Positions 617 to 32,212 of a DNA stretch of 53,326 nt are shown in pieces (the first letter of the stretch is position 1; each line of letters starts with the position of its first letter). The notes below the pieces were generated by a model. It did not search any database, was not told where the DNA came from, and was given only the letters and a program-made list of their open reading frames with translations. Source of the DNA: Candidatus Moraniibacteriota bacterium (GTDB lineage: Bacteria > Patescibacteriota > Minisyncoccia > Moranbacterales > UBA2206); assembly GCA_013334765.1 (NCBI GenBank), contig JAAXWW010000006.1:1-53326 (forward strand). The letters run 5' to 3'. A program made the position numbers and the translations under genes.

Positions 617-631
617 TTTTATTTCATAACT

Positions 632-1204: not shown

Positions 1205-1268
1205 GATAGACAACCGGCACAAAGAAGGTTAGTATTATAAAAGAATCCTAACTTTCAAAAAACAAAAC

Positions 1269-2417: not shown

Positions 2418-2421
2418 GAAA

Positions 2422-3603
2422 TCAGACCGAAAATACGGCCAGCCAGAAAATGACCGCCAGGTCATTTTTCATATAGGTGTCCAAAAGTCCGACTAAAAGA
2501 ATATATGCCATTATTGCTAGGAAAGTCGCCACGGATTTATCCGTTTTTAAATCATTGAGAGCTTTTTTCGCCCAAAAAAAGACGATTCCCAAAAATCCGA
2601 CCAGTCCGATGACCCCGGCTGAAAGCCAAATGAAGAGAAAGAGATTGTGCGGATGAGGAACCGCCCATTCGAGATAGGGCGGGAAATATTTCTGATAAGC
2701 CAGATACTGCTCCTGGAAACTGTCCGGCCCAATGCCGAATGCCCATTTGTCATCAAGGATCCTGAAGGCCGCCTTCCAAATCATTATTCTCGAAGCCAGC
2801 GAAGAACGCCTGTCAAACTCGACAAGGCTTCTGAACTTATCCGCATTGGCTTGCAGCATGACAACGCCTGCAATGACAGCTATTCCTCCCGCCAGCCATT
2901 TTTTGGAATAATCTTTCTTTGTCCAAGCGACAACAGCCAGCAGGGGAACTGCTAGCGCCGCCCAGGAAGCATATGAAAAAGTCCTATAGATAACTGCGGC
3001 TATCATCAGGCAAGAGACCAGGAATATCGCTTTTTTAAAAAAAATCTTCTGGGCATTTTCCGGCGCGAAAATCTGCCTCGACATAAAAAATCCAATGATA
3101 ATTGCCGGAGATAGATACATCGCCAAATAATTAGGCGAATTGAAAATGGATTCCAATCTGCCGTCATATGTGACTCTTCCAGAAAAGAGATAGCCAAGCG
3201 AAATCGCGGCGACAAAGAAGGCTGACCAGTAGAGGCTCTCGAGCAGTTTGCCATACCCGTCCTTCCCTGTAACCGTTCTGGCTGCAAAAACGAAAGCGAA
3301 AGGAAGGATAAACCAGCCCTTGATTATTCCTAAATTGCCTCTAAGATCGGGATTTCCGATGGCTGCCAGAAAAAGACCGAGAAACATGAGGCCGGAAAAG
3401 AAAAGCAGCATCCTGTTCTCAAACATGAACGCTTCGGCCTTTTTCCGATTAGCTGCCGAAAAGAAAGATACTGCCAAAAAAACCAGCATGAGGCATTCGA
3501 GCACATTGGTCGGAATGCCGAAAACGCTCAGCCGCAGCAGATAACTCGGGAGAGCAAAAACGATAAGGATCGCCAGGCTTTCAAGATTGAGATATTTTTT
3601 CAT
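2422..3603 (-). CDS. O-antigen ligase/polymerase (Wzy_C) family membrane protein
   Basis: Polytopic; RL..F.SPNYLA, TFS, R..IW, GIG, HPHNLFL motifs. Confidence 0.85.
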   Translation of the reverse strand: MKKYLNLESLAILIVFALPSYLLRLSVFGIPTNVLECLMLVFLAVSFFSAANRKKAEAFMFENRMLLFFSGLMFLGLFLAAIGNPDLRGNLGIIKGWFILPFAFVFAARTVTGKDGYGKLLESLYWSAFFVAAISLGYLFSGRVTYDGRLESIFNSPNYLAMYLSPAIIIGFFMSRQIFAPENAQKIFFKKAIFLVSCLMIAAVIYRTFSYASWAALAVPLLAVVAWTKKDYSKKWLAGGIAVIAGVVMLQANADKFRSLVEFDRRSSLASRIMIWKAAFRILDDKWAFGIGPDSFQEQYLAYQKYFPPYLEWAVPHPHNLFLFIWLSAGVIGLVGFLGIVFFWAKKALNDLKTDKSVATFLAIMAYILLVGLLDTYMKNDLAVIFWLAVFSV

Positions 3604-4867
3604 TCTTTCTTAGGTTCGGATTATCGAAACTTGCTACGATCAGGAAAAGCGATAGCACGGCCGGCGAATAGATCGGCATCTCGACCAGGGAGTGCGTCGC
3701 AAAGATCAGGATGCTTATGAAGAAAAACAAATATATAGGCTCTTCCTTCGCTCTAAGCAAAAACGCATAGCCTAATGCTAATTCGAGCATTATCCAAATC
3801 AAAGAATTCAACACGCCTGTTTCAGTCGCGATATCCAGATATAGGCTGTGGGCATAAATCGGTTCCCGATAGCTGGCAGTCGGCTTTATTTCGAGCGGAT
3901 AGTTGCCTAAGCCGACACCGAAGAGCGGATGCTCGAGTATGACTTCGCCTGCCTCCTTCCATATTTTCAGCCTTCCCGCGTTCGATCCTTCATTTAGATC
4001 GAAACTCGAAATGAAGCGGCTCGATATCGGACCGGGTATTATCATGACCAGAAACAAGGCAACTGAAAGAAAGATCATCCCCAGCTTGTATCTCGAAGAT
4101 ATATTCCTCCAAAAAAGCGCTACAAGAGCGATTGCGGCAGCGACTAGGCCCAGATACCCTCCGCGAGAGAAAGTGAGCATGTCGGTCAAAATAAGAGCCG
4201 TGAGGATGATTGCATAGATTGTTTTCCTTGAATTCATGTATAATCCAAGCGCCATAGGAATCAGCATGCCCAAAAAGAAGGAAAACATGTGAGGATCAGG
4301 AAATGTCGCCGTTGCGCGAAGAAGCGTTTTCCCTGAAACATCGACCAGCCAGCTAGGATTCTGAAGCACCGCCTCGGAAAAAGCGCGCCCTAAGAAAAGC
4401 GGCGCCACGTTTTTCGCCCAGAATCCGTATACGCCATCGATTCCGATGACGAACTGCATGCTGAATTGGAAGATCCCCAGGATCGCAGCGAAGAATCCTC
4501 CCCAAACCAAGGCCTTGAGGATATTGTCCCGTCTTTCTTGACTTGTTATGATGTTTGTCGCTATAAAGTAAAGAGGAAAAACAGAAAAAAGAAAGAGTAG
4601 TTTCCTTGATGACCAATCAATGTTTCTCGCGAAAAACAGTGAGAAAGCATTGAGAAACAGAAAGCTCATTATGAGCAGCCCCGAAAGCGATCTGGGCAGA
4701 CGAATGTCCCTATTCCGAAGCCCCGCAATGATCCAAGCCGCAAAAAAGCCCAGGATAAGCACCCTGACAGAAGACAGGTCAACATCGTTCGCGGGACTGA
4801 GAGCGATTCCGAAAGGCAGATAGAAGCAGAATCCGACCAGTCCCAGAAAAAGGATCTTATTCTTCAT
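3581..4867 (-). CDS. O-antigen ligase/polymerase (Wzy_C) family membrane protein
   Basis: RATATFPDPH, TFSRGG, GRLKIW, HPLFGVGLGN, AHSLYL motifs. Confidence 0.88.
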   Translation of the reverse strand: MKNKILFLGLVGFCFYLPFGIALSPANDVDLSSVRVLILGFFAAWIIAGLRNRDIRLPRSLSGLLIMSFLFLNAFSLFFARNIDWSSRKLLFLFSVFPLYFIATNIITSQERRDNILKALVWGGFFAAILGIFQFSMQFVIGIDGVYGFWAKNVAPLFLGRAFSEAVLQNPSWLVDVSGKTLLRATATFPDPHMFSFFLGMLIPMALGLYMNSRKTIYAIILTALILTDMLTFSRGGYLGLVAAAIALVALFWRNISSRYKLGMIFLSVALFLVMIIPGPISSRFISSFDLNEGSNAGRLKIWKEAGEVILEHPLFGVGLGNYPLEIKPTASYREPIYAHSLYLDIATETGVLNSLIWIMLELALGYAFLLRAKEEPIYLFFFISILIFATHSLVEMPIYSPAVLSLFLIVASFDNPNLRKNEKISQS

Positions 4868-4928
4868 ATACTATATTTTCTAGCATTTATCGGATAAAAT
4901 AACAACATTCAGGCCTTTTATCAAAAAC

Positions 4929-5528
4929 ATGAAGAATATAAGCCAAGAGGAGATTATAGAAAAAATAAAATCGGGACAGATCGGCGTATTCCCGACTGAT
5001 ACCCTCTATGCCGTTTCCGGAAGCGCCTTCGCCAAGGAGGCTGTCCGAAAGATTTATGAAGTGAAAAAAAGGAGCCGGGTCAAATCTCTCATTATCCTTA
5101 TAGGCTCCATTAAGGATCTTGATCTTTTTAAGATTCATCCCTCCGAAAAAGAAAATGACATCTTGAAAAAAGTTTGGCCGGGAAAAGTCAGCGTTATCTT
5201 TTCCTTCAATGAGAAATCATATGATTATCTCCACTGTGGAACGGATTCTTTGGCTCTCCGGCTTCCTGATGATCCTTGGCTCAGATCTTTTCTCAAAAGA
5301 TCAGGTCCGATCGTTGCCCCAAGCGCTAATCTGGAAGGATTTCCTCCGGCTAAAACCATAGCGGAAGCGAGGGAGTATTTCAAAGAAAGCGTAGATTTTT
5401 ATTTCGATAAAGGGAAGCTGGACAGCAAGCCATCCACCATTATTTCGCTCAAAAACGACCGCGTAACGATATTAAGGGCGGGTGGAGAAGAAGAGGTGCG
5501 TCTTGCGAAAAGCCTTGAGCAATCCTGA
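4929..5528 (+). CDS. tsaC: L-threonylcarbamoyladenylate synthase (YrdC/Sua5 family)
   Basis: FPTDTLYA, IYEVKKR, WPG, ALRLP, APSAN, PSTII motifs. Confidence 0.92.
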   Translation: MKNISQEEIIEKIKSGQIGVFPTDTLYAVSGSAFAKEAVRKIYEVKKRSRVKSLIILIGSIKDLDLFKIHPSEKENDILKKVWPGKVSVIFSFNEKSYDYLHCGTDSLALRLPDDPWLRSFLKRSGPIVAPSANLEGFPPAKTIAEAREYFKESVDFYFDKGKLDSKPSTIISLKNDRVTILRAGGEEEVRLAKSLEQS

Positions 5529-6287
5529 TTCGACAGGATGCCGGTGCTTTTTGAAATAACGGTCTTGAGATCCATAGTAGTGCCTTTTCTGTGCCGATCC
5601 GGCTTCGTTTTCATAGCTTGCCCCGCCATGGTGAATGATTTCGAGTCCCGGATCGAAACGAACGGTCTTTCCGAAATCGCGCGCTCTTTTGCAGAGATCC
5701 GCGTCTTCGAAATACATGAAGAAATCCTCGTCGAATCCGCCTAATGATTCGAACAGGTTCTTTCGCATGATGAAAGCCGTTCCGGAAACCCACCCGACAG
5801 GAATCTTGCTTCCGCTCATCCAGATCTCTTTGTCCTTTATGAATCCGAGATTATTGGAAACGATCCGGCTGAAATTTATTTCGTCTCCAGCGCTCCATTC
5901 CTGAACCATGCCGTCCTTATTGAGAAGTTTTCCGCCCACTATGCCAAGCGACGGATCAGCGTGAAAATCATCCAATATCCCCCCTATATTTCCAGAAGAC
6001 ACCCGGGCGTCAGGATTAAGGAAAAATAGGAAATCGCCTTGCGAATTCCTTGCGCCCAGATTGCTTGCTGATCCGAAACCTTTGTTTTGTGATGATCTTA
6101 TTATCCTGATTGACGGAATGCTTTCTATAGTGCCGAGATTAGACTCCTGATCATTATCGACAATAACGATATCCGCGAGGATATCGTTATTTATTTTCTT
6201 CCGGACCGAGTCGACGCAATCGTGAAGATATTTCTCGCTCTTATAGTTGACGATGATAACCGAAAGAGTTTTTTTCAGAGTATTCAT
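5472..6287 (-). CDS. Glycosyltransferase family 2
   Basis: SVIIVNY, VDN, NKGFG, FLNPD, GGFDEDFFMYFEDADLC; 3' end overlaps tsaC by 57 bp. Confidence 0.9.
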   Translation of the reverse strand: MNTLKKTLSVIIVNYKSEKYLHDCVDSVRKKINNDILADIVIVDNDQESNLGTIESIPSIRIIRSSQNKGFGSASNLGARNSQGDFLFFLNPDARVSSGNIGGILDDFHADPSLGIVGGKLLNKDGMVQEWSAGDEINFSRIVSNNLGFIKDKEIWMSGSKIPVGWVSGTAFIMRKNLFESLGGFDEDFFMYFEDADLCKRARDFGKTVRFDPGLEIIHHGGASYENEAGSAQKRHYYGSQDRYFKKHRHPVESGLLKAFRKTHLFFSTRP

Positions 6288-6324
6288 GGGGATTATCGGA
6301 ACACAAGAATTTGAAAAGATTATA

Positions 6325-6478
6325 GGTTTTGCGTATTTGCATATTGAAACTAATCAATGGAGGCAAATCGACAAACTGTCGAACAGTAACAAGGCTTTAC
6401 CGCAAGTGGAGCCAGTCATACTGCCACTCCCAACTAACAGGCCGGAACATTAGTTTCAATATGCAAATACGCAAAACC
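6325..6478 (-). repeat. ~150 nt hairpin element, family A, copy 1
   Basis: Perfect 30 bp inverted arms 6325-6354/6449-6478; interior is the reverse complement of the interiors at 43862-44016 and 45440-45592. Confidence 0.9.
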
Positions 6479-6502
6479 GCCTTCGTATCAAAACCTAGGA
6501 TA

Positions 6503-7396
6503 CTAATTTGCCTTCTTCGCGCGAACATTGCTCTTGAAATCATCGTACGCTTTTTTGACAGAAAGGGATATGGCATCGCTTGCTTTTTTCCCGACATCCA
6601 TCCGGTTTTTCAGCTTGCGCATGATAGTATAGAAAAATATCCACGGGCGAAGATAGCATCTGGAATTCTTTTTGAAAAAGAAAAGCCCGGAAACGACCAG
6701 CCAATAGATCTTCGCTTCCAGGTTGTCTTCGCTTTTCTCGAAATGCCTGACTTTGGATAGAGGGGAAATAGCCAATTTGAATCCGGCCCGTTTTGCCCTC
6801 ACGCTGAAATCCACATCCTCCCAATAAAGGAAAAAGTCCTCATCCAGAAGTCCGGCTTTGGCGAAGACTTCGCGCCTAATGAGCATCGCGCAGCCGGAAA
6901 CGAAACCTGTTTCGAAAAACTCCTCCTTCAGCTTCTCCGGGGAAGCATCCTCATGCATCGTCCTCATCCGCATCCAATCTATTTTTCCTCCGGAAAACCA
7001 GACGTCGGAAGAATCGCCCCTAGTAATCACCGGGCTTATTATTCCTATGTCCTTGTGCTTCTCCATTATGCCGACAAGGACGGAAAGCATATTGCGTTCG
7101 ATTTCCGTATCGTTATTGAGAAGCAGGATATATTTAGCCTGTTTTTCCAAAGAATATTTGATTCCGACATTGTTTCCCGCTGAAAAACCTAGGTTGCCCT
7201 CGTTTTTGATGAAAGTGGCGCGAGCGAAATCGTTCTTGGCCTCTTCAAGCGATCCGTCTTTGGAATCGTTATCCACCACGACCGCCTCGAAATCAGGATA
7301 ATCCAGCCTGAAAAGGCTGGACAGGCATTTTTTCAAGACATCCTTGCCGTTATAGTTAAGGACTACGATATTTACCTTACATGATGGGTTCTTCAT
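6503..7396 (-). CDS. Glycosyltransferase family 2
   Basis: IVVLNYNG, VDNDSKDGS, NLGFSAGNN, LLNND, GLLDEDFFLYWEDVD. Confidence 0.9.
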   Translation of the reverse strand: MKNPSCKVNIVVLNYNGKDVLKKCLSSLFRLDYPDFEAVVVDNDSKDGSLEEAKNDFARATFIKNEGNLGFSAGNNVGIKYSLEKQAKYILLLNNDTEIERNMLSVLVGIMEKHKDIGIISPVITRGDSSDVWFSGGKIDWMRMRTMHEDASPEKLKEEFFETGFVSGCAMLIRREVFAKAGLLDEDFFLYWEDVDFSVRAKRAGFKLAISPLSKVRHFEKSEDNLEAKIYWLVVSGLFFFKKNSRCYLRPWIFFYTIMRKLKNRMDVGKKASDAISLSVKKAYDDFKSNVRAKKAN

Positions 7397-22553: not shown

Positions 22554-23213
22554 TTACATATTCTTTATTATTTCCCTGAATCTGACGTATTCCGTGATGC
22601 GAAGACCCGTCCATTTCCCGATCAGGAGATTCAGCGGGACAGTCAGGATGACTATCCAGGGATAGGTGATGATGAAATTGATAAGCAGCGGCCAACTGGC
22701 TATGTAGAAGCCGAGGATCGAAATGATGAGCGTTTCCGCTGCCAGCATGAAAGCGACGCGGTCTCCTTTTTCGATCTGCACGGTGATGAATTTCTCGACG
22801 AGAGTGATCATGATAAGGATAGGGAAAATGGAAACGGAAGCCAATCCTGTCCTTCTGAGTCCGCCACCGATAGTCAGCATGAAAAGGATCGCGATCGCGA
22901 CAATCGTGAGCATGATGGCGACGCGGGGAAGATAGAGCAGGCGGAGCGATTTAAGCAAGAGGCGCGAAAGCATTCCGACCAGAAGGATCGTCACAAAAAT
23001 GGCTATGCCGTATTTGACGCCGTTGGTGGCAAGGAAGGCGAAGGTGACTATGAGAGGAGTATATACTCCGAAAGCCTTGACTCCGACCACTTGGCGGAGA
23101 AGGGCGATGAAGGTTGCGATAATGGGGAGCATCAAGAGAAGCACAACGGTGTCGAAGGGAACCCCTTCCCGGAGAAAGAAATCGATAACGGGATTCAGGT
23201 GCTGTATGTTCAT
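22554..23213 (-). CDS. 7TM membrane protein (type found fused to inactive transglutaminases)
   Basis: LLMLP, RQVVG.KAFG.YTP, LPRVA, IFPI.I...VEKF, IGKWTGLR..EY.RF; start taken at ATG 23213 just after the ruvC stop. Confidence 0.8.
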   Translation of the reverse strand: MNIQHLNPVIDFFLREGVPFDTVVLLLMLPIIATFIALLRQVVGVKAFGVYTPLIVTFAFLATNGVKYGIAIFVTILLVGMLSRLLLKSLRLLYLPRVAIMLTIVAIAILFMLTIGGGLRRTGLASVSIFPILIMITLVEKFITVQIEKGDRVAFMLAAETLIISILGFYIASWPLLINFIITYPWIVILTVPLNLLIGKWTGLRITEYVRFREIIKNM

Positions 23214-23820: not shown

Positions 23821-24537
23821 CTAAAGATTATCGTATATCTCGTCCACGTCGTCGTGGTCGTCAAGCGTTTCAAGAAGTTTTTCATAATCGAGACGCGTGT
23901 CAGCGTCGATCTCGGCGATTGTCTTGGGCAGATAGCCGAGACTTGCTTCCAGCACCTTTATGCCATTGGCAACAACGTTTTCCCGAATGGAGTTGAGCTT
24001 GTCCGGTTCCGTGAAAATGAGAAGCGAACCGTCTTCGAGCTTGGTGTCTTTGGCTCCGGCATCGATTGCCACGAGCTCGATTTCATCAGGATCTTTTCCT
24101 TCCAAGTCGGCATAGATGATCCCGACGGAATCGAAATTCCACATGGAACTGCCCTTTTCTCCCATTTTGCCTCCGGATTTGGTGAGGAGTGTCTTTATTT
24201 CCGAAACGGCCCGATTGCGGTTGTCGGTCATGGATTTTATGATCATCATGACTCCGCCTGGACCCATTCCTTCATATACGAGCTCTTCTATTTCGGCGCC
24301 TTTGAGTTCGCCGGTCCCGCGCTTTATGGCGCGTTCGATGTTTTCCTTGGGCATATTGACTGAGCGCGCCCTCTCAATGGCAAGCCTCAGCTGAAAATTG
24401 GCATCCGGGTTCCCGCCTCCGCCGTCCCTGGCTGCTATGGTTATGAGTTTGCCGAATTTGGTGAAGACTTTTCCTCGTTTTGCGTCCTGAAGGCCTTTTT
24501 TATGCTTGATTCCTGCCCAATGCGAGTGTCCGGACAT
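23821..24537 (-). CDS. yebC: YebC/PmpR family protein
   Basis: MSGHSHWAGIKHKKG, NMPKENIERAI, YEG.GPGG, TDNRNR, DDVDEIYDN. Confidence 0.95.
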   Translation of the reverse strand: MSGHSHWAGIKHKKGLQDAKRGKVFTKFGKLITIAARDGGGGNPDANFQLRLAIERARSVNMPKENIERAIKRGTGELKGAEIEELVYEGMGPGGVMMIIKSMTDNRNRAVSEIKTLLTKSGGKMGEKGSSMWNFDSVGIIYADLEGKDPDEIELVAIDAGAKDTKLEDGSLLIFTEPDKLNSIRENVVANGIKVLEASLGYLPKTIAEIDADTRLDYEKLLETLDDHDDVDEIYDNL

Positions 24538-24660
24538 AGTTTTCTCTTACGGTTGGTTACAATACCACTCTAGCATTTTAGCAAGCTGATTTCAAGGAAA
24601 AACAAAACCATCCTGGAAAGGATGGCAAGCTGTTTGTGGGCTGTAATTGAACGGCGCGCC

Positions 24661-25248
24661 TCAGATCTTTTCATGATGAATTTTGCCTTGCAGCATTTTT
24701 CCGAATTGCGCCTCCTCGGTTTTCTCCTGTTTTTCTTGGAGATTCATGATAAGATCCTTGATCCTGTATGGATCCGGGACATTGTTGAAGATGAAACGTT
24801 CTTTTTCCGAAGCGGTCTGTATGTAGAGGTTTCCGAAGTTGAAGAAAGTGGGAATGATGCCGGAAACTTCAGTAGTGACATCCTGGATGTTTTCCAATTC
24901 CAATTCGCTTACTTGGCGGGAAAAAAGGGCCTTCTGTTCAATATTGACGACGCGCTCGTTGGTGATTATCCAAACATCGAAATAATAATCGATCCAGATA
25001 ATGAAGAATATGATCCATATGAAAAGCAGGAAGGTGTTTTCCAACAGGGCGAAGAAAGAGTTCCCGATGGCTTCGCCGAGGAAAGGGAACATGACTGGCA
25101 GATAGGCATAGCTGCCGACTAGCATGATGATGAGGACGAAAACGAAGAAGAACTGCGTCAATATGTCGAACCAATGGCGATGCGCTACTAGAAGGATCTT
25201 TTCTCCTTCTTTCTGTCCGGCGAAATGGTATCTGTTGAAATCTTGCAT
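24661..25248 (-). CDS. Membrane-flanked bacterial PH domain protein
   Basis: Two TM helices then ITNERV, IQDV, FG...IQTA, F.NVPDP. Confidence 0.8.
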   Translation of the reverse strand: MQDFNRYHFAGQKEGEKILLVAHRHWFDILTQFFFVFVLIIMLVGSYAYLPVMFPFLGEAIGNSFFALLENTFLLFIWIIFFIIWIDYYFDVWIITNERVVNIEQKALFSRQVSELELENIQDVTTEVSGIIPTFFNFGNLYIQTASEKERFIFNNVPDPYRIKDLIMNLQEKQEKTEEAQFGKMLQGKIHHEKI

Positions 25249-25257
25249 AGGGATTTG

Positions 25258-25491
25258 TTAAAAGCTGGTTAGATTGGCTATTTTGGCAAAAAGAGGCTGC
25301 CAGTTCACTGAAAAGAAGAGCGCCAGATTGGAAACGAAAAGCAAGGTCGCTACGATGACGAAGGTTGTGAGCATGATCTTGTTGAGCTCGGAATTCAGGG
25401 AATATTTTATGAGATGATAGGTGATGAAAAGGCAGAAGAAGATATATGAGAAGATGATCAGTCCGTAGAGTATGAAAACAAATAGCGCCAT
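25258..25491 (-). CDS. Small hypothetical membrane protein
   Basis: 77 aa, two hydrophobic helices, 9 bp from the next co-oriented gene. Confidence 0.65.
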   Translation of the reverse strand: MALFVFILYGLIIFSYIFFCLFITYHLIKYSLNSELNKIMLTTFVIVATLLFVSNLALFFSVNWQPLFAKIANLTSF

Positions 25492-25552
25492 AGGTTTGTT
25501 TTAGTTTGTTATGTTTTTGTGGCCGATATGATCAAAGTATTCTAAGACATGC

Positions 25553-25707
25553 AAGGAAGCACTTTAAAAAATAAAAGAACCAAACTCGAACGCTCTGTTT
25601 TCTTTTCAAAATATTCACGCCTCTGATTTGTTAGCGTTCCGCAGAATATTTTGAAGAAAACAGGCATTCTCAAACAGTGTTTCTTTTATTTTTTAAAGTG
25701 CTTCCTT
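25553..25707. repeat. 155 nt nested hairpin element, family B, copy 1
   Basis: Perfect 27 bp arms 25553-25579/25681-25707 and an inner stem CTGTTTTC..TTCAAAATATTC/GAATATTTTGAAGAAAACAG. Confidence 0.88.
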
Positions 25708-25734
25708 TGTGAATAACCTAAAAATCATACTGGA

Positions 25735-26733
25735 TCATATCAATTTTCCCGGGCATTTGATTCCGAGATGCTCGTAGGCAAGCTCGGTCACGACGCGGCC
25801 TCGGGGCGTCCTGGTGAGGAATCCTATTTGAATGAGGTATGGTTCGTATACGTCTTCGATGGTGTTTATCTCTTCGCTTGTGGCAGCGGCTATGGTGGAG
25901 AGGCCGACCGGACCGCCTGCGAATTTTTCGATGATAGTCGAAAGGATGTGTTTGTCAGCCGGTTCCAGCCCGATTGGATCGACGTCGATCATTTCAAGAG
26001 CCTGCCTTGCTATCACTCCGTCAACCATCGGATGATCTTTGATCTGGGCATAGTCCCTGACGCGTTTCAAGAGCCTGTTGGCGACACGCGGAGTCCTTCT
26101 GGAACAGAGCGCGATTTCTTGCAGGCCTGACTCATCCATTTTCACATCAAGGATGCGTCCTGAGCGCTCAATGATCTTTTTTATCTCGTCCGTTTCATAG
26201 AATTCCAATCGATGGATGGCTCCGAAGCGGTTCCGAAGCGGGTTGGTGAGTGAGCCGAGTTTGGTGGTCGCTCCGATGAGGGTGAATTTGGGGAGGTCAA
26301 GCTGGATGGTTCTGGCGGATGGTCCTTTGCCGATGATGATGTCGAGCTTGTAGTCCTCCATGGCGGGATAGAGCACTTCCTCGATCGATTTGTTGAGGCG
26401 GTGGATCTCGTCTATGAAAAGGACATCGCCGTCTTGGAGGTTGGTTAGGATGGAGCCGAAATCGCCCACCCGTTCGATGGCAGGGCCGGAGGTTATCTTG
26501 ATGCTGACGCCCATCTCTTTGGCGATGATGTTGGCAAGGGTGGTTTTCCCGAGGCCGGCTGGGCCATAAAGAAGGACATGCTCGATCTGCTCGCTTCTTT
26601 TTCTGGCAGCTTCTATGAGGATCTGGAGGTTTTTCTTGGCTTTTTCCTGTCCGACATATTCTGAAAAGCTCTGCGGTCGCAAAGTCACGTCGAGGTTTAG
26701 GTCGTCATTCTGTTCGTTGGCGCTTGTAATCAT
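25735..26733 (-). CDS. ruvB: Holliday junction branch migration helicase RuvB
   Basis: [49 protein letters not shown]...G...RTPRGR. Confidence 0.98.
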
Positions 26734-26735
26734 AT

Positions 26736-26793
26736 CATGGAATATGGAACATGGAACATACAGCAAAAATGCCTTTTTGTTCCATATTCCATG
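26736..26793. repeat. Inverted heptamer array upstream of ruvB
   Basis: CATGGAATATGGAACA (26736-26751) and its exact reverse complement (26778-26793). Confidence 0.8.
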
Positions 26794-26823
26794 GTCTATG
26801 TTCTGTAATCAGTCTAGCACCAT

Positions 26824-26852
26824 TTGACAAATTTTAGAAGCTGTGCTAAGAT
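26824..26852 (+). promoter_or_regulatory. Sigma70 promoter
   Basis: TTGACA-17 nt-TAAGAT with extended TG. Confidence 0.75.
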
Positions 26853-26858
26853 ACTAAG

Positions 26859-27133
26859 TCATTTGGAAAAGCAGCTTTGCTTGATAAATGGCTAGCAGTA
26901 AATTGCAGGCAATTGGTGGTTCCTATCTTTTGCCATCAATCAGGGAACTTTTTTATCCAGACATGGGTAGCTTGGTAGCCTTCCACACCAGTTCTGAATC
27001 CATTTTGAGAATTGATGTGGCGGGTCGCTGGGCTATTCCTCGATACTGTTCCTTTTCTTGGGCTCCTAGTCTGAGAGTTTGCCTGCAAATTATTGATTGG
27101 ATAAGAAATCTCGCTTTCGGGCGAGATTTTTTT
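26859..27133 (+). ncRNA. Candidate 6S-like rod-shaped ncRNA
   Basis: Between a strong promoter and a terminator; closing stem TTGCAGGCAA/TTGCCTGCAA, internal AGGGAAC/GTTCCTT stem, long G-U-rich apical hairpin, unpaired bubbles; ~190 nt core. Confidence 0.55.
27106..27133 (+). terminator. Intrinsic terminator
   Basis: AAATCTCGCT-TTCG-GGCGAGATTT running into a T7 tract. Confidence 0.8.
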
Positions 27134-27172
27134 GTATTCTTGCATAGCTAGCGGAGAAGGATTGAAAATAAA

Positions 27173-27286
27173 AAAAGAACCAAACTCGAACGCTCTGTTT
27201 TCTTTTCAAAATATTCACGCCTCTGATTCGTTAGTGCTCCACGGAACATTTTGAAGAAAACGGGCATTCTCAAACAGTGTTTCTTT
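27173..27286. repeat. Hairpin element family B, copy 2 (outer arms decayed)
   Basis: 114 nt direct copy of 25573-25686 (offset 1600) with a handful of substitutions. Confidence 0.88.
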
Positions 27287-27324
27287 CAAATATTTGTCCC
27301 TATTCTAATTTATTTTAATCGTGG

Positions 27325-27390
27325 TTCTATAAATCCGTAACTCTTTCCACTTCCGAAAGCGTCGTCTCTCCTTCGATGACGTGGAGGATG
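27325..27390 (-). repeat. Duplicated 3' end of pilB (att-like direct repeat)
   Basis: 62/66 identical to 29060-29125; encodes the same ILHVIEGETTLSEVERVTDL-stop. Confidence 0.92.
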
Positions 27391-27397
27391 GTTGTTG

Positions 27398-28150
27398 TTA
27401 TTTCGTATTGCCCCACATAGCTTCGAAAAAATATCGTTGGCTTTCGGAAACGTCATTATTTTTGATATTAAATGTGAGATGTGGGTCGCCATATATTTCG
27501 AAGTCGATAGTGTCGTTGTAAATGACGGTATTGACCAAGTTTTTCTCAAGTCCTTTCATTGTCCGGTATTCGATCAATCCGCGTTTTGCGACTGCAATAT
27601 CCATGGAAGTCTTCAGTGATTCGGGACCTATGATTCTGAATCTGATATTCTTTGATACTCTTATTCTGTCCCATTGGGTATGAACGAATTCTCCAGCTTG
27701 GTCGAAATAGCGTTGCCATTCTCCGCATATCATAAGGATGGTCGTATCTTTCGACATTCCTTTAATTGTATCAATAAGCCGGGCGCGGAATGCTTTATTG
27801 CCTTCGGTTATCGAGAATTCCTGGCCTGATTTCTGCTGCATCAGCATCATGAGCGCTTGAGAAGCCTGCATGGCTTTTTTTTCCTGATTCTCAGCTAATG
27901 TGATTAGTTTTCGTGGATTTTCAGCTCTCCAGCTTGATTTTTTGATGCCTACCCGACTCACCATTTCCTTGCTTTCAAGAGAGGAGAGGGCGTTATAGAT
28001 GAATTGGCGGTGAAGTCCGGTGAGTTTGCTTAATGTGATGGCACTCATTTCGCCATAGGAAAGAAGCCTGGCATAGACCAGCGTTTCTTTCTCGTTGAAG
28101 CCGAGGGACAGCAGGCTTTCTTCTGTGTTTCGGTCAATAATTCTTGACAT
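27398..28150 (-). CDS. TrmB-family transcriptional regulator
   Basis: L..LG.N.KE..VY..LL..G....LSK.TGL.R..IY..L..L..K wHTH; EG...; IYND.I C-terminal effector domain. Confidence 0.85.
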   Translation of the reverse strand: MSRIIDRNTEESLLSLGFNEKETLVYARLLSYGEMSAITLSKLTGLHRQFIYNALSSLESKEMVSRVGIKKSSWRAENPRKLITLAENQEKKAMQASQALMMLMQQKSGQEFSITEGNKAFRARLIDTIKGMSKDTTILMICGEWQRYFDQAGEFVHTQWDRIRVSKNIRFRIIGPESLKTSMDIAVAKRGLIEYRTMKGLEKNLVNTVIYNDTIDFEIYGDPHLTFNIKNNDVSESQRYFFEAMWGNTK

Positions 28151-28197
28151 GATTATATTATATACCTTTTTTAAAGCAAAATAAAGTCAATAAATAA

Positions 28198-28239
28198 TGT
28201 CAATGTATCATTGACAAGTATTCTTTTTTAGCATATGAT
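28198..28239 (+). promoter_or_regulatory. Promoter with overlapping palindromic operator
   Basis: TGTCAATG-N3-CATTGACA palindrome containing -35 TTGACA; 17 nt spacer; -10 TATGAT. Confidence 0.7.
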
Positions 28240-28300
28240 TTGCGGTTAAGATGAATTATCTTAACCAAATGAACATTAACAATCAAGCGAGGATAATACC

Positions 28301-28897
28301 ATGAAGATTCTTGTTGTTGATGACAGGCTAGCCAATCAGGAATCCGCGCGTAAGACGCTTTCTGGTCACGAGTTGATCATTGGAGGAACATATGCCAGTG
28401 GCTGGAGCCATTTTCGTCGCCGTTGCAATAAAAAATTTGACGCTGTTCTGACTGATCTTCTTCTTCCTGAAGACTTGCCATCTGATGAAATTTTTCCGTA
28501 TGGAATCCCACTAGCGCTCGAAGCACTCACTCTTGGGGTGCCGTTGATTGCGATTGTGACTTTCGGCGACCATCATACGGAAGATCCTCGGGTGGGTATG
28601 CTAAACGGTATGAAGAACGGAAAAATCGGAGAAAGCGTTTTTATGACATCGGTGGATAGCCCCCTGGCGGCTCTGGATGGTGAATGCGATGTCTGCAGGG
28701 GTAAAAGGCTTGTTGTCTGCAAAAATTGCAAAGGAACCGGAATGACAGATGCAGAACATGGAAGGTTCGCGCAATGTTCCTGCATCTATAACGAACCGGG
28801 GCGGGGGAGGTCTCATTGCCACTTCTGCGATTCAACAGGGCGGCTTCACGGCAAGGATTGGGGATGGGTTCTCGAGCGGCTCATTGAGATGTGCTGA
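28301..28897 (+). CDS. Response-regulator receiver-like protein with DnaJ-type Cys-rich zinc finger
   Basis: MKILVVDD, FDAVLTDLLLP, IAIVT; CDVCRG, CKNCKGTG, CSC, CHFCDSTG; RBS GAGG. Confidence 0.75.
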   Translation: MKILVVDDRLANQESARKTLSGHELIIGGTYASGWSHFRRRCNKKFDAVLTDLLLPEDLPSDEIFPYGIPLALEALTLGVPLIAIVTFGDHHTEDPRVGMLNGMKNGKIGESVFMTSVDSPLAALDGECDVCRGKRLVVCKNCKGTGMTDAEHGRFAQCSCIYNEPGRGRSHCHFCDSTGRLHGKDWGWVLERLIEMC

Positions 28898-29007
28898 CCA
28901 AAGATATCAGCGGGTCGATTATTATTCCGCAGTAATCTTAGTGTCTTCGTCTTCCTCCGGATGCATTAGCGTATTTTCGCTTCTGTATCCGGGGGATTTT
29001 TTATTCT

Positions 29008-29043
29008 AAAAAACACCCAGTATCTATAATGGATACTGGGTGT
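29008..29043 (-). terminator. Intrinsic terminator after pilB
   Basis: ACACCCAGTATC/GATACTGGGTGT 12 bp stem with T-run on the minus strand. Confidence 0.7.
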
Positions 29044-29061
29044 CTAAGTACCTCAGTTTTT

Positions 29062-32000
29062 CTATAAATCCGTCACTCTTTCCACTTCCGAAAGCGTCGT
29101 CTCGCCTTCGATGACATGCAGGATGCCGTCCTGGGTCATGGTGAGCATGCCGTTTTCGACAGCCTTGTCCTGGAGGTCATTGGTGAGGGCGCCTTGCGTG
29201 ATCATCTCCTGGATATCGCGAGTGAGCTGGAAGACCTCGGAAACCGTCATGCGGCCTTTGTATCCGAGATGGTTGCATTCGTCGCATCCGACAGTCGCGT
29301 ATATCTTTTTGAGTTCCGGAATGGCGATGCCTGATTTCGGGGAAATAGTCTTGATGACGGACTGGATTTTCTCGGCCTCTTCGGGAGTCGGATCGATTTC
29401 TTTCTTGCAATGCGGGCAGAGCCTTCGGACCAGGCGCTGCGCTATGAAGGCATTGACTGAGGTGGCGACGTCCTGCGGCGTGACGCCCATGTTGATCATA
29501 CGGGCGACGGCTCCCGCCGCGTTGTTGGTGTGAATGGTCGAGAGGACCAGATGTCCGGTGAGGGCGGCCTGCACTGCCACCTGCGCCGTTTCGTCATCGC
29601 GGATTTCACCGATCATCATGATGTCAGGATTCTGACGGAGAAGCTGGCGAAGAGCGGTCGCGAAAGTATATCCGCCGGCGTCATTGACCGGAGTCTGCAA
29701 TATCCCTTCCATGCGGTATTCGATCGGATCTTCCACGGTGATTATTTTCACTTCCGGCTTGTTGAGGTGCTGCAGGACGCTGTAGAGAGTGGTGGTCTTT
29801 CCGCTGCCGGTCGGACCGGTATTGAGGATCACCCCGTTCGGTTTCTCGATCTCAAGGAGGATCTTTTCGAGATTCTCTTTCCGGATGCCGAGCTTGGTAA
29901 GGTCGTATTCCAGATTGGCGCTCGAGAGGAGCCTCATAACGACAGTCTCGCCGTATCCGCCGAGGATTATGGAAACACGGACGTCGATCATCTGTTCGGC
30001 GACGTCTTTTATGTCATCATCGAACTTGATGCTGAAACGGCTATCGATCACTCCCTGTCTCACTTCCGTCTTCACTCCGGAGAGAAGCTTTATCTGTCCC
30101 AGGAAATTCGGATATTCGGTCATGGTGATCTTGACGACGGTCTGCAGGATGCCGTCGATCCGGAAGCGTATGTGGACGTCTTCCGAGCCCGGTTCGATGT
30201 GGATGTCTCCAGTGCCCAGGATTTCGGCTGCCGCGAATATTATCTTGGCTATATCGATAGTCTTGGCTTTGGAGACAGCCTCCTGGAGAAGGGAAAAGTC
30301 ATGGACATTCTCTTTCGCTATATCGAATGATTCCTTGTTGACCAGGACCTTCCTTCCAAGGGTCTGGGACATGAGGCGCTCATAGATGTTCTCCAGGAAT
30401 TCTCCTTCTCCGGTCACTCTTTTCACTTCGTCGATCGAAGTGATTCCGGCAATGGCTTTCAATATCCCGTCCTGAAGCATGGTTATCATGCCTGATTCAA
30501 GGGCTGTCATGGTGAGTTCGGTTTCTCCGGCCAGCTCGATGATCAGCTTCTCAAGATCTTCATTGATGGTGAGGATCTCGAATATCCCGCGTCGCCCTTT
30601 GTAGCCGACTCCGTTGCATTTGGGGCATCCTTTCGGGCGGTACAGCTTGGTGATCTCTTTGGGAATCTCGACTCTTGATCGGGGAGAGATGATGGATAGG
30701 ACCTTTTTGATCGAATCGATAGTTTCGGTTGCCGGGACATATTCCTCTTTGCAGAAATCGCAGAGTTTTCTGACTAGCCTCTGTCCGATGATGGCGTTTA
30801 TGGAAGGGCTTATGAGCGACGGCTTCACTCCGAGCTCGATGAGCCGGGGAATGGCTCCGATGGCGCTGTTGGTGTGGAGCGTCGAGAGCACGAGATGCCC
30901 GGTAAGGGATGAATTGACGGCGATGTCGGCAGTTTCGTCGTCTCGGATTTCACCGACCAGGATGACGTCCGGATCCTGACGGACTATGGCGCGCAGGCCG
31001 GAAGCGAAAGTGTATCCTCTGGCTTTTTCGATCTGGGTCTGTGAAATCCCTTCCAATTCGTATTCGATCGGGTCTTCAATGGTGATGATTTTCTTGTCGG
31101 GCGTGTTCAGTTTGTGGATGATGGCATAGAGGGTAGTGGTCTTTCCGCTGCCGGTCGGACCGGTATTGAGGATCATGCCATTAGGTTCATTGATCTGCTT
31201 CTGCAGCTCTTCCCCAGCCAGCCCGACGATTCCGAGCTGTTCCACCTCGACGCGGATGGATTCCGGATCGAGAAGCCTTATGACTATGGATTCGCCGAAG
31301 TTTCCTGGGATGACGGAAACGCGGGTGTCGATTTTCTTGCCGGAAAGATGGACTTCGAAAGTTCCGTCTTGAGCGATATCGCGTAGGTTTATCTTCATGC
31401 CGGACATGATCTTGATACGCGAAAGCACGCTTTTGAAAACGCTCAATGGGAACATAGCGACATCCTGGAGGATCCCGTCGATGCGGTATCTGAGGCGGAA
31501 TTCGTTTTCCTGAGGTTCGATATGGATATCGGAAGATTGGAGGGCATAGGCGCCCGCCATGATGACATTCAATATCTGAGTGACAGGCATCTCCTTGATT
31601 CTTTTCCTGAGGGATACCAGGTTCTTGATAGCCGTTTTGTATTCTTGGAGCTCGTCATCCCCGATACTGAGGCTCAGCTGGTCGATGACGTCGAGAAAGA
31701 CTATCTTTTTGTAGCGCTCCAGGATATTCTTGAAATTGGTGTTGGAAACGACGAAAAGCCTGATTTCCCATCCGTTTTCTTCCGATAGGTGCTTGGCGAA
31801 CTTGCTGGTCTCTTCAGCCGTGGGATTGGGTGAAACCATGCTCACGTTTTTCCCTGCTTTTTGGATGATGGCCATGTTGTATTTTATGGCTGATTCTTCA
31901 GGAAGAAGCCGGAGGTTGTCAGGGGAAACCGGGACGACGTTCGTGTCGATATATGGGAAATTTATGGAAGCGGCGAAAAACGAGGCCTGTTCTTCCTCGG

Positions 32001-32091
32001 AGCGATGGCGGAGTTTCGCGATGATGTCCTGGGTTTCCCGATCTTTTTTGGAATGGTCAAGGGGCGCCTGACCGCTTAATACTTTTATCAT
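29062..32091 (-). CDS. pilB: GspE/PilB-family secretion ATPase with two tandem ATPase modules
   Basis: Two each of DIHIEP, RIDG.LQ, GPTGSGKTTTLY, EDPIEY, RQ.PD...GEIRD, TGHLVLST.HTN, QRLVR.LC..C. Confidence 0.92.
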   Translation of the reverse strand: MIKVLSGQAPLDHSKKDRETQDIIAKLRHRSEEEQASFFAASINFPYIDTNVVPVSPDNLRLLPEESAIKYNMAIIQKAGKNVSMVSPNPTAEETSKFAKHLSEENGWEIRLFVVSNTNFKNILERYKKIVFLDVIDQLSLSIGDDELQEYKTAIKNLVSLRKRIKEMPVTQILNVIMAGAYALQSSDIHIEPQENEFRLRYRIDGILQDVAMFPLSVFKSVLSRIKIMSGMKINLRDIAQDGTFEVHLSGKKIDTRVSVIPGNFGESIVIRLLDPESIRVEVEQLGIVGLAGEELQKQINEPNGMILNTGPTGSGKTTTLYAIIHKLNTPDKKIITIEDPIEYELEGISQTQIEKARGYTFASGLRAIVRQDPDVILVGEIRDDETADIAVNSSLTGHLVLSTLHTNSAIGAIPRLIELGVKPSLISPSINAIIGQRLVRKLCDFCKEEYVPATETIDSIKKVLSIISPRSRVEIPKEITKLYRPKGCPKCNGVGYKGRRGIFEILTINEDLEKLIIELAGETELTMTALESGMITMLQDGILKAIAGITSIDEVKRVTGEGEFLENIYERLMSQTLGRKVLVNKESFDIAKENVHDFSLLQEAVSKAKTIDIAKIIFAAAEILGTGDIHIEPGSEDVHIRFRIDGILQTVVKITMTEYPNFLGQIKLLSGVKTEVRQGVIDSRFSIKFDDDIKDVAEQMIDVRVSIILGGYGETVVMRLLSSANLEYDLTKLGIRKENLEKILLEIEKPNGVILNTGPTGSGKTTTLYSVLQHLNKPEVKIITVEDPIEYRMEGILQTPVNDAGGYTFATALRQLLRQNPDIMMIGEIRDDETAQVAVQAALTGHLVLSTIHTNNAAGAVARMINMGVTPQDVATSVNAFIAQRLVRRLCPHCKKEIDPTPEEAEKIQSVIKTISPKSGIAIPELKKIYATVGCDECNHLGYKGRMTVSEVFQLTRDIQEMITQGALTNDLQDKAVENGMLTMTQDGILHVIEGETTLSEVERVTDL

Positions 32092-32166
32092 GGTTTTGTT
32101 TTAGGATCTTTAACGCCATTCTAGCATATCTGCTGCGTTATTGATAATAAATCAGCTTAATTAAAC

Positions 32167-32212
32167 GGGCTTGCCTATTTGCATATGACAACTAATATTC
32201 CGGCCTGTCAGT
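32167..32212 (+). repeat. Truncated family A element (left arm + start of interior)
   Basis: TTTGCATATGACAACTAAT(A)TTCCGGCCTGTCAGT nearly identical to the corresponding part of the 43862 copy. Confidence 0.8.

What the first reader, a model, noticed from the sequence alone, without database searches (positions are those of the whole stretch)
27325..29125. Integrase-less mini-island bounded by a recoded duplicate of the pilB 3' end
Seen: 27325-27390 repeats 29060-29125 (last 20 codons plus stop of pilB); all four differences are synonymous (CTG/CTC, CAT/CAC, GGC/GGA, GTG/GTT). Between them lie only a TrmB regulator, a divergent receiver/Zn-finger gene and a terminator. Established: elements integrating into a gene's 3' end restore it with their own allele and displace the original. 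Inference: both tails were once functional pilB alleles, so the cassette came from a related strain via a circle or homology-driven insertion, using the pilus ATPase gene as a landing pad with no recombinase on board.
Basis: partly seen in the sequence, partly recalled or inferred. Interest (0 to 1): 0.7.

Follow-up and report, generated by a model that had tools for sequence, protein, structure and literature searches.

The report
Gene cassette displacing pilB's original end
A two-gene regulatory cassette was spliced into the last 66 bases of a pilus-motor gene of an ultra-small (Moranbacteria-type) bacterium, bringing its own copy of the gene's end and stranding the old end downstream; it is a clear but not unprecedented scar of gene gain without a mobile-element enzyme.

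Summary
27325-27390 and 29060-29125 are a 62/66 direct repeat, the only two copies in the 969-kb genome. Both encode the same last 20 codons plus stop of a fused double pilB. All four differences are synonymous.

Between the copies lie a TrmB-family regulator, a divergent receiver-like/Cys-rich gene, their promoter-operator region and a strong terminator that now serves pilB.

- Two metagenome relatives (pilB 95% identical in protein) show the exact empty site.
- The displaced copy sits where their single pilB end sits.
- An independent assembly of the probable source run bridges both junctions without a difference.
- No recombinase lies in the window.

Best reading (about 0.55): the host's own recombination imported the cassette from a closely related lineage, with pilB as the homologous anchor and one illegitimate join. 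This resembles the 3'-end displacement described for Rhs and T6SS loci.

"Landing pad" is not supported. None of 26 other pilB loci has a second tail, although the pilB-ruvB gap is a variable slot. The donor was not found.

The same genome holds two further repeat-flanked cassettes, at typA and at the prepilin peptidase gene. This scan has reported the same kind of scar before in other genomes (gap, topA, gyrA, groEL2, gatD, rlmD). Verdict: a new member of a known kind.

The parts
29062..32091 (-). pilB: 1009-aa fused double type II/IV secretion ATPase, the interrupted host gene, intact
   Evidence: Pfam T2SSE, 771 bits, two stretches. Full length in one frame in 34 of 40 relatives.
29060..29125 (-). 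Repeat copy now used by pilB (last 20 codons, stop, 2 nt). Read as the imported allele.
   Evidence: At two of three informative variable sites it differs from both relatives where the other copy agrees with at least one.
27325..27390 (-). Displaced original pilB end, non-coding relic, still an open 20-codon reading
   Evidence: Its downstream flank 27285-27324 aligns with the pilB downstream flank of L099.
27391..29059 (.). Inserted DNA (1669 nt; 1735 nt with one repeat copy), absent from close relatives
   Evidence: The window aligns to L099 as 23821-27389 = 429-3958 and 29060-32212 = 3894-7047. GC 43.6% against 52.4% in pilB and 52.1% in ruvB; no other copy in the genome.
27398..28150 (-). 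TrmB-family winged-helix transcription regulator (250 aa)
   Evidence: Pfam PF01978, 45.7 bits, residues 15-76. NCBIfam TrmB equivalogs lie far below their cut-offs. Orthologues at 61-62% in G043 and G095.
28198..28216 (.). Palindrome TGTCAATGTATCATTGACA between the divergent genes. Candidate TrmB operator, overlapping the -35 of the promoter-like site of the receiver-like gene.
   Evidence: The palindrome is conserved upstream of the three TrmB orthologues. Binding is inferred, not tested.
28301..28897 (+). Receiver-like protein with a Cys-rich (four CxxC) insert, 198 aa
   Evidence: Pfam Response_reg, 19.2 bits, below its cut-off of 30.2. D7, D8, D52, H91, H92, K185 and W187 are invariant in 9 homologues. 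In the model, residues 1-100 have pLDDT 78-95, and the best fold hit is receiver domain 3jte, E 3.3e-4. The Cys-rich part is modelled at pLDDT below 50.
29013..29043 (-). Cassette-borne hairpin followed by six U on the minus strand: the terminator now serving pilB
   Evidence: RNA fold -21.9 kcal/mol, z -4.69, 0 of 200 shuffles as stable. Inverted self-match 29013-29043.
27166..27286 (+). About 120-nt hairpin repeat (8 copies in the genome) 38 nt below the displaced tail. Part of the native context, not of the insertion.
   Evidence: Present at this place in L099, absent in L097. Depth 270 against 24-28 in X1.
26858..27100 (+). Conserved structured RNA candidate between pilB and ruvB (native context)
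   Evidence: Promoter-like site 26824-26852 and terminator 27103-27132. In 19 sequences, 54 predicted pairs, 24 with compensatory changes. No Rfam family reaches its threshold.
25735..26766 (-). ruvB, the conserved gene on the far side of the variable slot
   Evidence: Pfam RuvB_N, AAA_lid_4 and RuvB_C. The order DHH-pilB-ruvB is kept in 18 of 20 relatives' loci.

Best explanation
The 1.7-kb segment is not a self-mobile island. It is a scar of recombination-driven gene gain. DNA from a closely related lineage carried the 3' part of that lineage's pilB followed by a terminator, the receiver-like gene and the TrmB gene. It entered the cell, plausibly by natural transformation. It paired with the resident pilB as a homologous anchor, and its far end was joined illegitimately 66 nt before the resident stop codon. 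pilB therefore now ends in the donor's last 20 codons and uses the donor's terminator. The resident last 20 codons were pushed 1735 nt downstream, where they still sit in front of the native downstream sequence. Selection kept this event because pilB stayed whole. The cargo is a self-contained regulatory pair: a TrmB-type repressor or activator with its own palindromic operator, and a divergent receiver-like/zinc-finger protein. Shown: the repeat, the insertion relative to empty sites, the native position of the relic, the absence of a recombinase, the intact genes and the terminator. Inferred: the donor, the route of entry, which end was illegitimate, and the cargo's function.
For: (1) Empty sites. 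L099 and L097 (pilB 95-96% identical in protein, DNA 83-86%) have a single tail, and the window aligns to them on both sides of the insertion. A contig of run X4 joins 27115 to 29060 through the same 34 letters as L097. Run X3 carries the L099-like form.
(2) The relic is continuous with sequence homologous to the native pilB downstream flank.
(3) All 4 differences are synonymous, p 0.0035 or 0.023 under the two null models. The two window copies differ at 4 sites, whereas each differs from L097 or L099 at 7-9 sites (my count on the alignment). The donor was therefore a closer relative than those two.
(4) Recombination among diverged lineages is active at this locus. L097 and L099 are 96-97% identical in the DHH gene but 73-86% identical in parts of pilB (150-nt windows).
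(5) No recombinase lies in the window. The genome's two tyrosine recombinases score best with Xer models. Of 26 other pilB loci, 21 were searched for a second tail and none was found. In the other 5 I saw one tail each.
(6) ComEC, DprA and RecA are encoded. Natural competence has been reported for other Patescibacteria (PMC10187176 and PMC10633639, search listing and abstract starts only).
(7) The same mechanism was proposed for orphaned 3' regions at Rhs and T6SS loci (PMC5361080, passages read). MGE-free hot spots flanked by recombining core genes are described in PMC5635113 (passages read).
Against: No donor or other copy of the cassette was found, so the claim that the cassette stood behind pilB in the donor is untested. 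The receiver-like gene has no homologue above 35% identity. The segment 28898-29059 matches nothing in any fetched locus. No change point in divergence is visible in the 3' part of pilB. With relatives 14-17% diverged, that test has little power. The junction shows at most 1 nt of microhomology that can be judged. At variable site A (27339/29074) the used copy, not the relic, agrees with both relatives. The structure is formally identical to the product of a single crossover with a 1735-bp circle. Contigs cannot exclude an excised form or an empty-site minority in the source sample.
Confidence: 0.55

Rival explanations
1. Campbell-type insertion. A small circular DNA of about 1.7 kb carried the cassette plus a 66-nt pilB end. 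It could have been excised from another cell's identical structure by recombination between the repeats. It then integrated by one RecA-dependent crossover inside the 66 nt.
For: The product is exactly what a single crossover with a circle gives: the homologous segment duplicated around the insert. In E. coli, 56 of 60 recombinants in an experiment designed to detect homology-facilitated illegitimate recombination were such duplications of 109-950 bp (PMC3240628, passages read). The mixed pattern at the four variable sites would fit a crossover inside the repeat.
Against: The longest perfect match between the copies is 29 nt, which is very short for RecA. DNA taken up by transformation is linear and single-stranded (established knowledge, recalled). 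No circle junction or plasmid copy was seen in the contigs. There is no other copy in the genome. The origin of the first circle carrying exactly a pilB tail still needs the best explanation or something like it.
Confidence: 0.15
2. Non-autonomous integrative element. The 66-nt repeats are attL and attR of an element that targets the pilB 3' end and is moved in trans by a recombinase encoded elsewhere. Candidates are one of the two Xer-like tyrosine recombinases or the 600-aa serine recombinase.
For: Direct repeats that restore the 3' end of the target gene are the classic signature of integrase-borne islands (established knowledge, recalled). Recombinases exist on contigs C2, C8 and C1. A 16-mer GAAGTGGAnAGnGTGA occurs only twice in the genome, in the used tails of pilB and typA, the two genes with displaced 3' pieces.
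Against: There is no integrase on board or in the window. Among the 26 other pilB loci no second tail was found in the 21 searched, and one tail was seen in each of the other 5. No close homologue of the cargo turned up in 201 genomes of the order, in the 5.8-billion-protein collection or in viral contigs, so nothing suggests an element that spreads. The 16-mer simply encodes E-V-E/D-R-V and is also present in pilB of island-free relatives L045, L048 and L099. The three repeat pairs in the genome share no other motif.
Confidence: 0.12
3. In-situ event. The cassette was inserted by a process that duplicated 66 nt of the target (staggered breaks or template switching during repair). The two initially identical copies then diverged by 6%.
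For: The genome holds a 78-nt repeat pair, 77/78 identical, around a DUF4143 ATPase gene at the start of the prepilin peptidase gene. That pair looks like a fresh duplication. The two pilB copies are closer to each other than to any relative.
Against: Four of four synonymous differences has p = 0.023 if the relic drifted freely. After 6% divergence the relic has no indel, stop or amino-acid change. At two variable sites (27369/29104 and 27384/29119) it is the used copy that departs from the relatives, although that copy is the one under selection.
Confidence: 0.1
4. Assembly artefact that joins two strains.
For: The genome is a metagenome bin. Hairpin repeats break contigs next to the site.
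Against: An independent assembler gives one contig across both junctions with 0 differences and even depth. The copies share no exact word longer than 29 nt, and the junctions lie outside shared sequence.
Confidence: 0.03

Closest known systems
3'-end ('C-terminal') displacement at Rhs, CDI and Vibrio T6SS effector-immunity loci, attributed to homology-facilitated illegitimate recombination (PMC5361080, passages read; Jackson 2009, Prudhomme 2002, de Vries and Wackernagel 2002 seen only in its reference list)
   Same: A conserved upstream part of the gene serves as anchor. A new 3' end plus new downstream genes arrives. The old 3' end is pushed downstream and kept as an orphan. No integrase is involved.
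   Different: There the new tip encodes a different toxin domain and the orphan keeps an immunity gene of selective value. Here the new and old ends encode the identical 20 residues of a housekeeping-type pilus ATPase. The cargo is regulatory, the relic has no evident use, and there is one event, not an array.
Genomic islands and prophages integrated by tyrosine integrases into the 3' end of tRNA, tmRNA or protein genes (recalled, no paper read)
   Same: Imperfect direct repeats; the target gene is regenerated by element-borne sequence; the original end is displaced.
   Different: No integrase gene, no recurrence at the same site in relatives, a size of only 1.7 kb, no excision product seen.
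[quoted passage not shown] 2017, PMC5635113, abstract and passages read)
   Same: A variable slot between two conserved core genes (pilB and ruvB) with different small cargo in different genera. No mobility genes. Recombination mosaic in the flanking gene. [quoted passage not shown]
   Different: Double homologous recombination leaves no duplicated gene end. The displaced tail here shows that at least one join was not homologous or that a circle was involved.
Insertion-duplication by single crossover with a circular molecule (PMC3240628, passages read)
   Same: A duplicated stretch of the homologous locus flanks the inserted DNA.
   Different: The laboratory duplications were 109-950 bp of identical sequence from a plasmid. 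Here there are 66 nt with four mismatches and no known circular donor.

Membership tests
Integrase-mediated integrative island (att-flanked) | Site-specific recombinase gene on the element | tested here: not met
   Only two ORFs of 198 aa or more lie between the repeats, TrmB and the receiver-like gene. The genome's Phage_integrase and Resolvase matches lie on C2, C8 and C1.
Integrase-mediated integrative island (att-flanked) | Direct repeats at both ends that regenerate the target gene | tested here: met
   66-nt pair, 62/66; pilB is intact at 1009 aa.
Integrase-mediated integrative island (att-flanked) | Same attachment site used again in related genomes | tested here: not met
   0 of 18 and 0 of 3 loci have a second tail. 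One tail was seen in each of 5 metagenome loci.
Integrase-mediated integrative island (att-flanked) | Excised circle and restored empty site in the same population | not testable with these tools
   Only contigs of the runs could be laid, and they drop rare variants.
3'-end displacement / homology-facilitated illegitimate recombination scar | Displaced copy lies at the native position, in front of the native downstream sequence | tested here: met
   27285-27390 aligns with the L099 pilB end and its flank.
3'-end displacement / homology-facilitated illegitimate recombination scar | The two ends are alleles that diverged under selection in separate lineages | tested here: met
   4 of 4 differences synonymous, p 0.0035 or 0.023.
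3'-end displacement / homology-facilitated illegitimate recombination scar | Insertion absent from close relatives | tested here: met
   L097 and L099; the joint in run X4.
3'-end displacement / homology-facilitated illegitimate recombination scar | Donor-derived tract in the anchor gene, with microhomology at the illegitimate junction | tested here: inconclusive
   No change point in 150-nt identity windows along pilB. The donor side of the junction is unknown.
Diversity-generating retroelement (template/variable repeat at a gene's 3' end) | Differences confined to adenines of the template copy, with a reverse transcriptase nearby | tested here: not met
   Only 1 of the 4 differing sites is an A in either copy on the coding strand (sequences). 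No third gene lies between the repeats. A reverse-transcriptase family search was not run.
TrmB family transcription regulators (PF01978) | N-terminal winged-helix TrmB domain above the Pfam cut-off | tested here: met
   45.7 bits against 25.6, residues 15-76.
TrmB family transcription regulators (PF01978) | Sugar-sensing C-terminal domain of archaeal TrmB/TrmBL1 | tested here: not met
   NCBIfam equivalogs score 26.9 and 19.5 bits against cut-offs of 600 and 650, and only the N-terminus matches.
Response-regulator receiver domain (PF00072) | Sequence match above the curated cut-off | tested here: not met
   19.2 bits against 30.2, residues 3-57 only.
Response-regulator receiver domain (PF00072) | Receiver fold with the acidic pocket and the phospho-acceptor Asp | tested here: inconclusive
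   Best fold hits are receiver domains 3jte (E 3.3e-4, TM 0.53 on the target) and 3crn. D7, D8 and D52 are invariant in 9 homologues. The whole model has mean pLDDT 65.7, and a cognate kinase was not sought.

The most novel reading that the evidence does not exclude
Ultra-small Patescibacteria may have a regular, still unnamed way of adding one- or two-gene cassettes at the very ends of conserved genes. It would duplicate or bring along 40-80 nt of the gene end so that the gene survives. It could run on the competence and recombination machinery, or on a Xer-like enzyme acting in trans. This genome alone shows three such repeat-flanked cassettes in 0.97 Mb: at pilB, at typA (with an AbiE pair) and at the prepilin peptidase gene (with a DUF4143 ATPase). 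The scan has met the same scar at gap, topA and other genes elsewhere. The 16-mer shared only by the used pilB and typA tails would then be a recognition core and not a coincidence.
Probability: 0.12. Interest if true: 0.75.

Novelty: new member of a known kind. Interest (0 to 1): 0.38.

Why it matters
These bacteria have tiny genomes, few recognisable mobile elements and no cultured representatives in this lineage, so how they gain genes is mostly inferred. Here the before and after states are both readable. The empty site survives in close relatives, and the original gene end is preserved as a relic. Synonymous-only differences show that the replacement end came from another working pilB. 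That makes this a clean, datable example of gene gain by the host's own recombination at a variable slot next to ruvB. It also offers a concrete template, one-sided homology plus cargo, for testing such insertion in the Patescibacteria that can now be transformed. By itself it does not reveal a new mechanism, and its cargo, a TrmB-type regulator with a receiver-like zinc-finger partner, remains functionally untested.

Tried and rejected
- **Diversity-generating retroelement.** Rejected: the differences are not adenine-specific and no third gene is present.
- **Phage origin of the cargo.** The viral-contig scans gave one 57-residue, 39% match for the receiver-like protein and nothing for TrmB.
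- **Defence-system membership.** PADLOC gave only weak HTH-type and marginal hits, E 2e-4 to 4e-3.
- **Donor search.**
  - TrmB matches 141 of 201 genomes of the order, but only two at 61-62% identity and in other contexts.
  - The receiver-like gene matches 14 of 201 genomes, all weakly. In the large protein collection, 5 proteins reach E<=0.001 and the best non-self hit is 35% identical.
  - Only proteins of 108-347 aa were candidates in that search, and longer or shorter forms were not searched.
- **Recombination breakpoint in pilB.** No change point was visible.
- **Empty-site or circle forms in the source run.** None appeared among contigs, and contigs cannot show minorities.
- **Run X2.** It holds two 151-nt contigs identical to 27811-27961 and 28107-28257 at depth 2 and nothing of the flanks. 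That is too little to conclude anything.
- **Empty site for the typA cassette.** The typA downstream region is not syntenic in 12 of 12 relatives, so no comparison was possible.
- **Prepilin-peptidase repeat.** Relatives' proteins align only from residue 8-24 of the ORF as I called it. Most of the '57 coding nt' of that repeat may therefore be 5' leader. Not pursued.
- **Rfam for the conserved RNA and the hairpin repeat.** Nothing reaches a gathering score.
- **Second pilB-tail copies in other genomes via the genome-contig scan.** 8 loci were returned with one match each, and 5 of them were genomes already examined.

Full report
**What is there.** The window is contig C3 of a 968,888-base, 10-contig genome. 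Relatives fetched from the public genome collection are titled Candidatus Moranbacteria / Moraniibacteriota or Patescibacteria group.

On the minus strand lie, in order:
- a DHH-family gene;
- a 1009-aa pilB made of two fused T2SSE ATPase units (Pfam 771 bits, two stretches);
- ruvB;
- two small membrane/PH-domain genes;
- yebC.

The repeat finder reports 27325-27390 and 29060-29125 as a 66-nt direct pair, 62/66 identical. The genome holds no third copy, and the self-BLAST E-value is 8.5e-21. Both copies read ILHVIEGETTLSEVERVTDL-stop.

Between the copies lie:
- a TrmB-family gene at 27398-28150, minus strand, Pfam 45.7 bits;
- a divergent 198-aa gene at 28301-28897;
- a 150-nt promoter region with the palindrome 28198-28216;
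- a 13-bp hairpin followed by six U on the minus strand, 16 nt after the pilB stop (-21.9 kcal/mol, z -4.69).

**Is it an insertion?** Yes.
- The order DHH-pilB-ruvB is kept in 18 of 20 loci from family and order relatives. Neither cassette gene is found there in any of the 20 (tblastn E<=1e-5).
- Those relatives are only 57-73% identical in PilB. A degenerate pattern for the C-terminal peptide was therefore scanned over metagenome contigs.
- Two of the five loci returned, L097 and L099, have PilB 95-96% identical and DNA 83-86% identical to the window.
- The window aligns to L099 as 23821-27389 = 429-3958 and 29060-32212 = 3894-7047. L099 thus has one tail where the window has two, and nothing in between.
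- The 40 nt below the window's displaced copy align with the 40 nt below the L099 tail. The displaced copy is therefore the original end in its original place.
- L097 is also empty and in addition lacks the ~120-nt hairpin repeat (27166-27286 in the window) that L099 and the window share.
- Independent runs agree. A contig in X4 joins 27115 to 29060 through the 34 letters seen in L097, and X3 carries the L099-like form.
- In X1, probably the source sample, one 2572-nt Logan contig covers 27250-29600 without a difference, at depth 24.1 against 28.1 next door. The structure is therefore not an artefact of the original assembler.

**What the repeat says.**
- 46 of the 189 possible single-base changes in these codons are synonymous. 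Four of four then has p = 0.0035 for random change. It has p = 0.023 if the relic drifted while the used copy was constrained.
- The simplest reading is that the two ends diverged while both were parts of working pilB genes in separate lineages.
- They share the lineage-specific residues H, I and S, which the 20 more distant relatives do not show together.
- They differ from each other at 4 sites but from L097 or L099 at 7-9 sites (my count). The donor was thus a closer relative than those two.
- At two variable sites (27369/29104 and 27384/29119) the relic agrees with a relative and the used copy is unique. At one site (27339/29074) the reverse holds, and one site is polymorphic. This weakly favours the relic as resident allele and the used tail as import.

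**Mechanism.**
- No recombinase lies in the window. The genome has two tyrosine recombinases that score best with Xer models, and one 600-aa serine recombinase, all on other contigs.
- No second pilB tail was found in 18 relatives or in 3 further genomes. In the 5 metagenome loci I saw one tail each. pilB's end is therefore not a recurrent attachment site.
- The pilB-ruvB spacer is a variable slot. It measures 358-2461 nt in 18 relatives, and 9 of them carry unrelated ORFs there. From sequence motifs that I recall, these look like a peptidase, small nucleases and a nucleotidyltransferase pair; that was not tested.
- L097 and L099 are 96-97% identical in the DHH gene but only 73-86% identical in parts of pilB. 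Recombination between diverged lineages is thus frequent at this locus.
- ComEC, DprA and RecA are encoded.
- I therefore favour an import by the host's own recombination: pilB as homologous anchor, and an illegitimate join 66 nt before the resident stop. This is the mechanism proposed for orphaned 3' regions at Rhs and T6SS loci (PMC5361080).
- It fits the picture of MGE-free hot spots (PMC5635113).
- A single crossover with a 1.7-kb circle gives the same product (PMC3240628) and cannot be excluded.
- A trans-acting site-specific recombinase and an in-situ 66-nt duplication are less likely, for the reasons given under the rival explanations.

**The cargo.**
- The TrmB gene has orthologues at 61-62% identity in two genomes (G043, G095), in other contexts. 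All other matches are 34% or less.
- The palindrome and promoter upstream of TrmB are conserved among the three orthologues. This suggests autoregulation and control of the divergent gene, but that is inference.
- The 198-aa protein belongs to a small, fast-evolving family with invariant D7, D8, D52, H91, H92, K185 and W187.
- Its first ~100 residues are modelled with pLDDT 78-95 and resemble receiver domains (3jte, E 3.3e-4).
- The four-CxxC insert is modelled poorly. By recollection it resembles DnaJ-type zinc fingers; this was not tested.
- A TrmB paralogue sits next to a receiver-like gene in 2 of 13 other loci, so the pairing recurs but is not fixed.
- The island's GC is 43.6% against 52% in pilB and ruvB.

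**Other displaced ends in the genome.** A self-BLAST for local direct repeats found two more cases.
- A 41-nt piece of the near-3' coding sequence of typA/bipA (C4 24474-24514) recurs, 38/41 identical, at 22956-22996. An AbiEii gene (Pfam 89 bits) and an upstream partner gene lie between.
- A 78-nt pair, 77/78 identical, at C7 11662-11739 and 12992-13069 covers the start region of the prepilin peptidase gene and flanks a DUF4143 AAA ATPase gene.
- The typA surroundings are not syntenic in 12 relatives, so no empty site could be shown.
- The 16-mer GAAGTGGAnAGnGTGA occurs only in the used pilB and typA tails. It encodes E-V-E/D-R-V and is also present in island-free relatives' pilB. I treat it as coincidence but list it as unexplained.

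**Comparison and verdict.** The feature has the architecture of an integrase-borne island, but it fails two of that family's defining tests: there is no recombinase and no recurrent site. It meets the testable features of a 3'-end displacement scar.

This scan has already reported the same kind of scar in other genomes: e1-2046354 gap, e1-2177721 topA, e1-4742883 gyrA, e1-4373402 groEL2, e1-4636717 gatD and e1-726742 rlmD. Those are unchecked AI notes and are not used as evidence.

My literature searches turned up no paper describing such scars at housekeeping genes of Patescibacteria. They were few and keyword-bound. I rate the finding a new member of a known kind, well resolved and moderately interesting.

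Noticed in passing
window 26824-27132 (+): Strongly conserved structured RNA candidate of about 240 nt between pilB and ruvB. It has its own promoter-like site and terminator. In 19 sequences of the order there are 54 predicted pairs, 24 with compensatory changes. No Rfam family reaches its threshold. Its translation gives the spurious 'MASSKLQA...' ORF seen in many relatives.
   Followed up: partly
G000 contig C4 22956-24514 (locus L102 2956-4514): A second displaced gene-end piece. 41 nt of typA/bipA near-3' coding sequence are repeated, 38/41 identical, 1518 nt downstream, with an AbiEii toxin-antitoxin pair in between. No empty site could be shown.
   Followed up: partly
G000 contig C7 11662-13069 (locus L103 2662-4069): A 78-nt direct repeat, 77/78 identical, covers the start region of the prepilin peptidase gene and flanks a DUF4143 AAA ATPase gene. 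Relatives' peptidases align only from residue 8-24, so the repeat may be mostly leader.
   Followed up: partly
window 25566-25686 and 27166-27286; also C8 (3 copies), C1 (2 copies), C5 (1 copy): About 120-nt hairpin-forming intergenic repeat, 8 copies in the genome at 82-93% identity. Depth about ten-fold in the source run. Present or absent next to pilB between L099 and L097. Earlier notes of the scan describe related hairpin families in this genome (e1-1275490, e1-1275489).
   Followed up: partly
window 29073-29088 and G000 C4 24470-24485: The 16-mer GAAGTGGAnAGnGTGA occurs only twice in the genome, in the used tails of pilB and typA. Probably a coincidence of the peptide E-V-E/D-R-V and codon use, since island-free relatives' pilB has it too.
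   Followed up: partly
window 29062-32091 (-): pilB is a tandem fusion of two complete T2SSE ATPase units. It is conserved full length in 34 of 40 relatives. Already noted by the scan in another genome (e1-1290973).
   Followed up: no
loci L097 and L099, pilB region: The two metagenome relatives are 96-97% identical in the DHH gene but fall to 73-86% in stretches of pilB. This is a recombination mosaic at the locus.
   Followed up: no
G000 contig C1 55523-57325 (locus L130 1523-3325): A 600-aa large serine recombinase (XisF/Ccr-like, below curated cut-offs) with an 80%-identical 102-nt direct repeat nearby at C1 59309-59410 and 61213-61313. Possibly a real integrative element. Not examined.
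   Followed up: no
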